From: Tubulanus polymorphus
Lineage: Eukaryota > Animalia > Nemertea
Direction: 5' to 3'
Length of the DNA stretch: 64,000 nucleotides
NCBI RefSeq assembly: GCF_964204645.1
Contig: NC_134029.1
Span: forward strand, 6,014,001-6,078,000
The notes below the pieces were generated by a model, which saw only the letters and a list, made by a program, of their open reading frames with translations, ran no database searches and was not told the origin of the DNA. Shown here one piece after another: positions 35,901 through 38,900 of this stretch; the stretch's first letter is position 1, and the number at the start of each line of letters is the position of its first letter. The translations under genes were made by a program, and so were the position numbers.

Positions 35901-38900
35901 TGTCATAGTTTAATAAAATGAAAAAAAGTATTCTACAATAAGGAAAATGTCGAATCGATTTACAAGAGGAAATCCAATCTACACCAGTTTGATCGACTGA
36001 CTGGTACTTTCTCCAGCTGATATTTTTTAGCTCTTGTTCCGGCTGAGGCGTGCATTTTGTAAGGCGATCTAGATTATCAGTGCCGGGGAGTTTGGATACT
36101 GTGAACTCTTTGGCACTGTGCTTGTCCTTACTGTCAATTCATCATCTTGCTCTATTTACAGGACGAAAAGAACCAAATTATATCATCAAATGTCTGGTTA
36201 GATATGGTAAGTTACTTGATGACAACGGTGTTTATGTCATCAGCGTGCGTGCGTGCGTGCTGCCTCCAGGGCGAACGGGATGCGACACTGTCGTCACGTA
36301 ACTCGACGATAACACGAACCACGAAGACAAAAAAGAGTTCATGATTATTATTAACCAAAATCATGAGAGAAATTTGACGAGGTTTTTCCGAGCTGTTCGA
36401 CAGAGGTGTAGCAGGTTTGCGCTCTAGAGTTGACCCACAGTGGCGCACCCTAGTTGTAAAGGGTTGAATGTTGTTTTCGAGCATCATGAAACTCACGATA
36501 TTTTCTCTCTACAGGACGAAAAAAATCAAATAATCAACACTAATGTATGGTTAGATTTGGTAAGTCTGTCCGCACGGTAACGTATGATATTTACGTAGGA
36601 ATGAGAAGAGGATAAAATAAGTTGACAATCCTGACACTTGGTGTGAGTTTTCTGCGTAACTTTCCTTAAACCCGTTAACTATCGTTAGTTTATGTATTCG
36701 AGAAAAAGCTATTGATAAAACAGTACGCGATCGACGATATGACGATTAAGAAGTCTTAACATGCTAAATAAAATTTGAGAGAGAAAGAGAGAGATAGCAA
36801 TTTTAGATAAATCCACGAGATTGAATGAAATATTAAAAAAAGATATATACTTCGGAATATGGACGATAAAAAATTGAAGAATAAATGAAAATTTGAAATT
36901 TGTTCGTATGTTTGCTAAAATGTTATCCATTTGGTAAAAAAAAAAATGTGTCCGAAATAGCATGCAATAGAAATAAACAGAATCGTTGATGAATATAATG
37001 ATTCTTGTACCATTAGTTCTACAAGATGTCAATCGACACAAAACTGATAGATGAAAAATTAGGTATGCCACGAAGAGATATAATTAGATTTAGGCATTAG
37101 TAATTAAAAAACAGTTTCTAAAAAAATGCATCAACTTCTTTTATCCTCAGATTCCAAATTTTAGGATTTGCCCTCATATCATATTGTCCATCATTCGTTG
37201 CTCAAGTGACTCGTATACTACTGTCATCATGTGCCAGACACCCAAAGACACTGCTGCTTTCGTCTTAGATTGAAAATAAACTGAACAATGACATCGATAA
37301 GCCCGTCTGAAGAGTCTCCCATCCTTCGTTGCAATACACGAAAACATCAAACCACCGAGACATCCCGAAAATGAAACTTAGATGTTTTAATCAAAAATTT
37401 CAGTCATATTTATGGAGAAATGATGCAAAAACACTAGAACTGAACTGCACTTGAACTAAAACGATTTCAACATAAAGTATCAGTAGGATCATATTTCGTG
37501 AAGAAATATTATAACTGAATTTTCATCAAGCAACATACACGTTGCTCCGTATCTTTTCTTGTAGTAAGTTCACTCAGAGCCTAGAGCTGATTCACGCTTG
37601 GTTATTGGTGATTATTCCATATATATTTTTATTCATTGTTATTGATAGAGCTGTCAATACTTTTTAAATCTAAACATTCGCTGCCTTTTTTATGGCGGCG
37701 CAAATTAACATAACTGCACTGAAACCCGTTAAGACCTTGTTGAATTTTGTCTCAAATGCGTAGCTTTAAAGTTCCTCAAGCCCTCAATTAATTATTTTCG
37801 CATTTATAATCAACGAATTAAATACACATTTTACCCCATTTCTTCTTCTTCTGAATTCATCTATTTTTATATGATTTTCTACTTACGCCAGCGGAAGCAG
37901 TGGTGTCGTTCGTGTTGCGCATGCGTGCATGTCATGATATCGTGACCACATTGTCTCTATTTTGCATGTATTCATCGCGCGAATTTTGTCGCATCAGATC
38001 TTTTCAAATGGTGAATCGAAAAAGTCCATTTCGATGTATACAATATTGAGAAGTTTCCAACTGCTCGAAAAAAATCGACAATGGCTCAAAGAATATTCGG
38101 CAAGCACATCATGCGTCTATATGTGTTTCTTACAACACTCTTTCACCTTTCACCGAAAAACGTCACCCACGTTCAATCAATGAGAACTTGGTTACTAGAA
38201 ATGGCAACGAATCATGGTACATGTACTTTTAGCCCTATATATAAGTAAAAAAGCGAGCAAAAAACTGCGATGTATTTACCGAATTATATGTGTAAATTAT
38301 AATCCCATCCCATCGAAAAAAATAAATCAAACCACCAAAGCCAAAGCTTTACTGCATATTCCATTAAATCGTTAGTTTATGAACTCTTCTCTAAATGTAA
38401 AATTCTGTTTTTTTCTGTTTGAGCCAAAATCGATTTGATTATAAATACCACCCGAATTTTTCCCAGCTATAGATGGTATTTTATTTTGCGGCCCGTAATT
38501 GAGGAAATATTTCAGTTTCATCATATATACGTATTATAATCATCGTTTTTATTGATTATCATATAGATTCGAAATGATAATCGATTTCATTTGATTACAA
38601 ATTAATTAAGCTTAATGTTAAACGAGGTAAAGGGGATATGTTTATTACGGCTGATTTTTGAGCTAATTTACATATTATATAATTTAAGTGCACATGAACC
38701 AGTATACGTACGCATGCATGAAATATATTGTTTAGACAATTTTCTTAAAACAAATCTTATATAAAAATATAATTTCTCGTCATCTCTATAAATGATATTG
38801 TATATTGTCTGCATGGTGATTTTAAATTTCATTATCTCTTTATAAAAATCGAGTACGATTTCTTTATCTCGGTCCCTGATCTCTTTTGGTACAGTTTGAA

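What the first reader, a model, noticed from the sequence alone, without database searches (positions are those of the whole stretch)
36162..36559. Tandem duplicated loop-D exons 3a/3b
Seen: two 45-nt phase-0 exons 308 bp apart with canonical splice sites, [15 protein letters not shown] vs [15 protein letters not shown], with many synonymous differences, indicating selection on both. Established: this exon carries the loop-D Trp of the complementary face and is alternatively spliced in insect alpha6. Inference: ancient shared cassette or convergent duplication. Double inclusion would keep frame, so exclusion needs an active mechanism.
Basis: partly seen in the sequence, partly recalled or inferred. 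Interest (0 to 1): 0.7.

Follow-up and report, generated by a model that had tools for sequence, protein, structure and literature searches.

The report
Twin loop-D exons, ribbon-worm nicotinic receptor
A ribbon worm's alpha7-type acetylcholine receptor gene carries two old, intact copies of a small ligand-site exon, and two of a larger downstream exon, each pair likely used one copy at a time: a splice choice long known in arthropods, here found in a non-arthropod lineage.

Summary
Confirmed. Two 45-nt, phase-0 exons (36162-36206, 36515-36559) sit in an alpha7-type nicotinic receptor gene that matches RefSeq models labelled Tubulanus polymorphus, a nemertean. Synonymous sites are near saturation and the protein is conserved (pS 0.92, pN 0.11). 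RefSeq isoforms X1 and X2 already use one copy each. No RNA run was available, so exclusivity rests on annotation. Exon-3 pairs also occur in models of Lineus and Capitella, so the cassette is not arthropod-only. None of the six spiralian copies bears the arthropod 3b signature, which favours a separate origin; 15 residues cannot settle it. The copies keep the same loop-D Trp and the same Asp two residues on, and differ only at three conservative positions, so I expect fine tuning. Exclusion need not be strict: silkworm and tick include both. No steric or RNA-pairing mechanism was found. It recurs in the same order in annelid and flatworm models, and 7a is absent from the Tubulanus proteins seen. 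The scan noted exon-7 pairs before on other DNA. Verdict: new member of a known kind.

The parts
33165..33310 (+). exon 2 (146 nt) of the alpha7-type nAChR subunit gene; exon 1 of the RefSeq model was not found in the window
36162..36206 (+). exon 3a ([15 protein letters not shown]), used in RefSeq isoform X2
36207..36514 (+). 308-nt intron between 3a and 3b; branch-point-like CTCAC about 20 nt before 3b; no excess folding (z -0.27)
36515..36559 (+). exon 3b ([15 protein letters not shown]), used in RefSeq isoform X1
40746..40855 (+). exon 4 (110 nt, loop A); single copy here, whereas Lineus models have two versions
40955..41208 (+). exon 5/6 (254 nt; loops E and B, Cys-loop, loop F; loop names recalled)
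41767..41961 (+). exon 7a (195 nt; loop C YECC, RRRKLY, M1, [10 protein letters not shown]): intact second version, absent from both RefSeq isoforms seen
42726..42920 (+). exon 7b (195 nt; loop C YECC, RRRTLY, M1, [10 protein letters not shown]): canonical version, used in X1 and X2
44029..44115 (+). exon 8 (87 nt, pore helix M2), single copy
49463..49572 (+). exon 9 (110 nt, M3)
50407..50844 (+). last coding exon (intracellular loop, M4, stop)

Best explanation
This is an old tandem duplication of the loop-D exon of a nemertean alpha7-type nicotinic receptor gene whose two intact copies are likely spliced one at a time, giving subunits predicted to differ only subtly, and which likely arose separately from the arthropod 3a/3b pair. 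Shown: both copies are intact, have saturated synonymous sites and strong splice sites, and each appears alone in a public gene model. Inferred mechanism: exon 2 joins either 3a or 3b. Because every combination keeps the frame, decay cannot enforce the choice. It most likely rests on splicing regulators acting on two small competing exons; any leaky double-inclusion product would be a non-functional subunit, as reported for the tick. Inferred effect: the variable residue is the alpha7 T51 equivalent (Ser or Asn), which by strand alternation would lie on the same face as W55 and Q57, so it would tune the subunit interface or gating rather than agonist identity. With the 7a/7b pair the gene would give four full-length subunit types.
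For: Sequence and controls. RefSeq X1 has 3b only and X2 has 3a only. The six Lineus isoform models carry one or the other of two exon-3 versions, 0 of 6 both. A Capitella model joins two exon-3 copies in tandem. A classifier trained on 5 arthropod pairs of known order separated them in leave-one-out (5 of 5 at +12.2 to +19.5; 5 of 5 at -4.0 to -18.3). It scored the six spiralian copies +12.2, +10.9, +16.6, +7.2, +10.7 and -0.3, so none falls in the 3b range. Exon position 8 differs in 11 of 12 pairs tabulated; the three spiralian pairs have S/N, A/H and T/Q, and the second copy is the larger polar one in both pairs of known order. Tick 3a+3b gave no current in oocytes (PMC13578988, passages). 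Human alpha7 without exon 3 is non-functional (PMC5111602, passages).
Against: No splice junction was observed: no RNA holder was listed, and I did not see the transcript support behind the RefSeq models. Double inclusion is common in silkworm pupae and adults and occurs in ticks. Both window copies share Asp at position 14 while both Lineus copies have Asn, which needs parallel change, conversion or separate duplications. Capitella's second copy scores neutral (-0.3) and changes position 14 as arthropod 3b does. A lobster gene has both an exon-3 and an exon-7 pair, which fits one shared origin. Fifteen residues were too few for a tree. No exclusion mechanism was demonstrated. The orientation of T51 is inferred, not modelled.
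Confidence: 0.72

Rival explanations
1. One protostome-wide origin: the ancestral alpha7 gene already had 3a/3b (and perhaps 7a/7b), and the copies later diverged or were homogenised differently in arthropods and spiralians.
For: Exon-3 pairs occur in models of insects, crustaceans, chelicerates, two nemerteans and an annelid. The same position (8) varies in 11 of 12 pairs. Panulirus models carry both cassettes in one gene. The AU test does not reject joining spiralian 7a with arthropod second copies (p 0.28-0.38).
Against: No spiralian copy has the arthropod 3b profile. At position 8 arthropod 3b has Ile/Val and spiralian copies have Asn/His/Gln. For exon 7 the divergent copy is first in spiralians and second in arthropods, and the free tree separates them (98/96).
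Confidence: 0.28
2. Separate, more local duplications of exon 3 in each spiralian lineage, or ongoing gene conversion between the copies.
For: Within-species pairs differ by only 2-3 residues and share private residues (Asp in both Tubulanus copies; Ile-Leu in both Capitella copies). Single Lingula, Watersipora and Owenia models show one exon 3.
Against: Synonymous sites are near saturation and flanks have diverged, so neither a recent event nor recent conversion fits. The small-versus-large-polar pattern at position 8 recurs in three species. Single models do not show absence.
Confidence: 0.22
3. The exons are not strictly exclusive: regulated double inclusion or skipping makes non-functional subunits that damp receptor output.
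For: All 16 combinations of exons 3 and 7 stay open and in frame. Silkworm switches to 3a+3b in pupae and adults. The tick 3a+3b form is inactive. Lineus X5 skips exon 7.
Against: 0 of 2 Tubulanus and 0 of 6 Lineus models include both copies. In the insects tested by Jin et al., no double inclusion was found in 30 cDNAs outside silkworm.
Confidence: 0.15
4. One copy is a dead or unused duplicate, or the pair is an assembly artefact.
For: No RNA evidence seen here.
Against: pN 0.11 against pS 0.92; intact splice sites on both; both used in public models; a read-derived contig spans both.
Confidence: 0.04

Closest known systems
Insect nAChR alpha6 alternative exons 3a/3b (Jin et al. 2007, PMC1919356; Berger et al. 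2016, PMC5111602; passages read)
   Same: The same 45-nt, 15-residue loop-D exon, in tandem, frame-neutral, used one at a time in most insects.
   Different: Nemertean host. Neither copy has the insect 3b signature. The Q79-equivalent is not toggled (Asp in both). Exon 8 (M2) is single here but triplicated in insect alpha6. Exon 7 is duplicated here.
Tick Ixodes ricinus alpha6 exons 3a/3b (PMC13578988; passages read)
   Same: Tandem exon 3 outside insects, in a receptor that works as a homomer in oocytes.
   Different: The tick forms seen are 3b alone and 3a+3b (inactive); the public models here use 3a alone or 3b alone.
RefSeq models XP_074649611.1 and XP_074649612.1 (Tubulanus polymorphus alpha-7-like X1, X2)
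   Same: Identical to the window's exons 2-10 and already encode the 3b and 3a choices.
   Different: Neither contains exon 7a; no Tubulanus protein with 7a was among the 120 of 877 hits listed.
Tandem exon 7 in arthropod alpha7-type gene models (termite, locust, aphid, barnacle, lobster; database models)
   Same: Two versions of the loop C / M1 / GEK exon.
   Different: Canonical copy first and divergent copy second, the reverse of spiralians; separate branches in the free tree.

Membership tests
alpha7-type nAChR subunit | Vicinal cysteines in loop C | tested here: met
   YECC in both 7a and 7b
alpha7-type nAChR subunit | Cys-loop (C-x13-C) and aromatic binding residues of loops A, B, C, D | tested here: met
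   Aligned residue by residue to human alpha7
alpha7-type nAChR subunit | Closest solved relative is alpha7 | tested here: met
   Human alpha7 E 1.8e-148; the next other subunit, beta2, E 6e-113
alpha7-type nAChR subunit | GEK motif before M2 (cation selectivity; role recalled) | tested here: met
   PPDAGEK in both 7a and 7b
alpha7-type nAChR subunit | Forms an acetylcholine-gated homomeric cation channel | not testable with these tools
   Needs expression
Arthropod alpha6 3a/3b cassette | Two tandem 45-nt phase-0 copies of the loop-D exon | tested here: met
Arthropod alpha6 3a/3b cassette | Second copy bears the arthropod 3b residue pattern | tested here: not met
   Window 3b scores +10.9; arthropod second copies score -4.0 to -18.3
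Arthropod alpha6 3a/3b cassette | Host gene is the alpha6 orthologue | tested here: inconclusive
   Unrooted 23-row backbone tree: spiralian versus arthropod split 100/99, and the alpha6/alpha7 split lies within arthropods, so at most co-orthologous; no outgroup
Mutually exclusive exons | Each copy used alone, rarely together, in transcripts | tested here: inconclusive
   Only gene models; no RNA holder listed
Mutually exclusive exons, steric type | Branch point too close to the upstream donor | tested here: not met
   308-nt intron; candidate branch point about 20 nt from the 3b acceptor; AG-free zone 31 nt
Mutually exclusive exons, docking-site/selector type | One intron site pairing competitively with a selector at each copy | tested here: inconclusive
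   Downstream dock: 10 of 12 shuffles as strong. Upstream dock: 0 of 12 shuffles but 3 of 35 GC-matched decoys as strong, with broken helices. No orthologous intron was available for covariation.
Mutually exclusive exons, frameshift/decay type | Double inclusion or skipping breaks the frame | tested here: not met
   All 16 combinations open

The most novel reading that the evidence does not exclude
The alpha7 gene of the protostome ancestor already carried two splice switches, one in loop D (toggling the T51-equivalent residue) and one swapping loop C, M1 and the selectivity linker as a module. Both survive in ribbon worms, annelids and crustaceans, so the insecticide-relevant 3a/3b choice of insect alpha6 is the remnant of a Cambrian-age combinatorial code that lets a homomeric receptor build mixed pentamers from one gene.
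Probability: 0.25. Interest if true: 0.65.

Novelty: new member of a known kind. Interest (0 to 1): 0.4.

Why it matters
Exon 3a/3b splicing has been studied as an arthropod feature of the spinosad target alpha6. Finding it in nemertean and annelid genes shows either repeated duplication of the same 45-nt exon or a much older origin than the roughly 300 million years that Jin et al. documented. The nemertean pair differs at only three residues and leaves the two known ligand contacts unchanged, so it is a clean natural test of what 3a/3b is for. The neighbouring 7a/7b pair changes about half of loop C, M1 and the pore linker, looks ancient in Spiralia and is missing from this species' models seen here; it is the part more likely to change channel behaviour.

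Tried and rejected
No whole genome is held for this window. No RNA holder was listed. Runs X1-X3 cover introns like DNA; X4 (RNA by guess) laid one 212-letter record under 90% alike at exon 8, with a loose end resembling a 7b-type exon, from a paralogue or relative. None of this bears on expression. Junction evidence from X4 at lower likeness remains open. A tree of exon 3 could not be built from 15 columns; the first classifier there used 4 pairs that I had ordered by resemblance, so it was redone on the 5 ordered pairs. Competing RNA structure for exon 3: not above decoys; not tested for exon 7 beyond the inverted-repeat list. Steric exclusion rejected. No further copies of exons 2, 4, 5, 6, 8 or 9 in the window, including by the Lineus alternative exon 4 (best other score 16-19 against 132-204). 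The metagenome scan gave 22 loci, none with an exon 3 or a 7a/7b pair by my score thresholds. The AU test of the Tubulanus 7a+7b pair alone as one clade was not rejected (p 0.104). A first AU run with a fast search was replaced by a fuller search. Toxin self-resistance as a reason for the loop-D Asp: the passages of PMC6410017 that I saw list anabaseine mainly for hoplonemerteans and tetrodotoxin for Tubulanus, so no support. Supplements were not read; the alignments in the supplements of PMC6896357 could bear on whether spiralian pairs were noticed.

Full report
Observation. They share 34 of 45 bases and 12 of 15 residues; 5 codons differ synonymously and 3 in amino acid. Nei-Gojobori pS is 0.92 and pN 0.11 (few sites). 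Of 259 open AG-45nt-GT/GC candidates in the window, no other exceeds 4 of 15 identity to 3a. The flanks keep little beyond splice signals. One contig of run X1 spans both exons and both exon-7 copies almost letter for letter; X1 may be the window's own source.

The gene. The exon 5/6 peptide matches a protein labelled Tubulanus polymorphus alpha-7-like at 100%. Its cluster holds two RefSeq models: X1 with 3b only and X2 with 3a only. The splice choice is therefore already annotated. That such isoforms usually rest on transcript alignments is my recollection; I did not see their support. Exons 2-10 map to 33165-50844; exon 1 was not found in the window. The nearest solved structure is human alpha7 (E 1.8e-148). 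In that alignment exon 3 equals precursor D66-M80, holding W77 and Q79, which are mature W55 and Q57. The copies differ at the T73, T74 and M80 equivalents (S/N, S/T, M/L). Both keep the Trp, and both have Asp at the Q79 position, where charge governs neonicotinoid sensitivity in chicken alpha7 (PMC10906874, passages). So the swap does not touch the two best-known loop-D contacts.

Relatives, exon 3. The six Lineus longissimus isoform models use one of two exon-3 versions (0 of 6 both), two exon-4 versions and two exon-7 versions, and one skips exon 7. A Capitella model joins two exon-3 copies. Pairs also occur in models of insects, barnacle, lobster, horseshoe crab, spiders and a tick. Single models of Lingula, Watersipora, Owenia and two myriapods show one copy, which does not prove absence. 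A profile trained on the 5 arthropod pairs whose order is given by tandem models separated all 10 copies in leave-one-out; five of six spiralian copies scored as 3a/ancestral and Capitella's second copy was neutral. Position 8 differs in 11 of 12 pairs and position 14 in 8 of 12 (the Amphibalanus pair may come from two genes, and five pairs have no known order). Spiralian pairs have S/N, A/H and T/Q at position 8; arthropod 3b has Ile or Val. My odds for the origin, by inference: one spiralian event separate from arthropods about 0.5, one protostome event about 0.28, more local events about 0.22.

Second cassette. Two 195-nt exons encode loop C, M1 and the GEK linker: 7a (41767-41961) and 7b (42726-42920), 53% alike in protein, pS 0.86, pN 0.27, both with canonical splice sites. 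X1 and X2 both use 7b. No Tubulanus protein with 7a was among the 120 of 877 hits listed for a 7a profile. The 7a type (RRRKLY ... GEK-x-T/S-F/C/M) precedes the canonical type in models of Capitella, Owenia, Macrostomum and two unnamed records. Lineus and Owenia also have single-copy isoforms of each type. In a 50-row tree the 7a copies form one branch (95/94) inside a spiralian exon-7 branch (98/96), apart from arthropod duplicates; window 7a is a long branch. On a 29-row subset, AU tests rejected separate duplication in each species (p 0.027-0.028) but not duplication per phylum (0.20-0.30) or union with arthropod second copies (0.28-0.38). An ancient spiralian origin is thus favoured, not proven.

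How it likely works. All 16 combinations of the two cassettes, including double inclusion and skipping, stay open and in frame, so decay cannot enforce exclusivity. The intron is too long, and the candidate branch point too near 3b, for steric exclusion. A docking-site search found nothing downstream (10 of 12 shuffles as strong); an upstream candidate beat 12 shuffles but not GC-matched decoys (3 of 35). By elimination I favour protein regulators choosing between two small exons with identical donor sites, with some leak; this step is inferred. Leak is documented elsewhere: silkworm pupae and adults include both (PMC1919356, passages), and the tick 3a+3b form is inactive in oocytes (PMC13578988, passages). 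Loss of exon 3 abolishes human alpha7 function (PMC5111602, passages). The predicted outcome is four full-length subunits that could mix in one pentamer.

Literature. Ten searches. Those aimed at nemertean, lophotrochozoan or annelid nAChR splicing and at exon 7 (36, 47, 53) listed no paper describing either pair in spiralians; I saw listings and abstract starts only. The lophotrochozoan survey PMC6896357 has no 'isoform' or 'nemert' and one 'splic', in a reference (passages). PMC12309072 and PMC9219234 were read as passages and add nothing on these pairs. The library lacks most subscription papers.

Earlier scan notes. None by sequence or for this genome. By words, notes on other genomes report an exon-7 pair in a worm-like animal, three duplicated exons in an Owenia alpha7-like gene, and exon-7 pairs in arthropods, including a springtail gene with loop-D, loop C/M1 and M2 pairs. 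I had found 7a/7b before these look-ups; the notes are not independent support.

Verdict. Real, selected and already annotated for exon 3; the same kind as arthropod 3a/3b but not shown to be the same event. New member of a known kind; interest 0.4, lifted mainly by the reach outside arthropods and by the 7a/7b pair.

Noticed in passing
window 41767-41961 and 42726-42920: Second tandem pair, exon 7a/7b (loop C, M1, GEK linker), 53% alike, same order in annelid and flatworm models; 7a absent from the Tubulanus proteins seen.
   Followed up: yes
window 40215-40545: Intronic hairpin 200 nt upstream of exon 4: 20-nt arms 95% complementary, z -3.99 (0 of 100 shuffles; region chosen after the fact). 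One arm also pairs with 40294-40314. Read depth is flat, so not a high-copy repeat. Could be an editing substrate or a splicing element.
   Followed up: partly
window about 35050-35340: High-copy interspersed repeat in intron 2: contig depth about 6,600-10,300 against 35 in run X1.
   Followed up: no
window 36201-36203 and 36554-36556: Asp at the alpha7 Q79 (mature Q57) position in both copies; also in a Watersipora model. By analogy with chicken Q79E it would be expected to lower neonicotinoid sensitivity.
   Followed up: partly
window 40955-41208: Exons 5 and 6 of the vertebrate numbering (recalled) are one exon here, as in loci L017 and L020.
   Followed up: partly
window 44361-44591: Long (TA)n microsatellite in the intron after exon 8.
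   Followed up: no
window 61594-63906 +: 770-residue open frame with RING, B-box, filamin-like and NHL-repeat motifs, TRIM2/3-like by recalled motifs; not searched.
   Followed up: no
P0123 (Lineus isoform X4): Lineus has a second exon-4 version (loop A) that has no counterpart in this window.
   Followed up: partly
P0166, P0400-P0402 (Panulirus): One lobster gene's models show both an exon-3 pair and an exon-7 pair.
   Followed up: partly
window upstream of 33165: Exon 1 of the RefSeq model has no match in the window, so intron 1 would exceed 33 kb if the model is right.
   Followed up: partly
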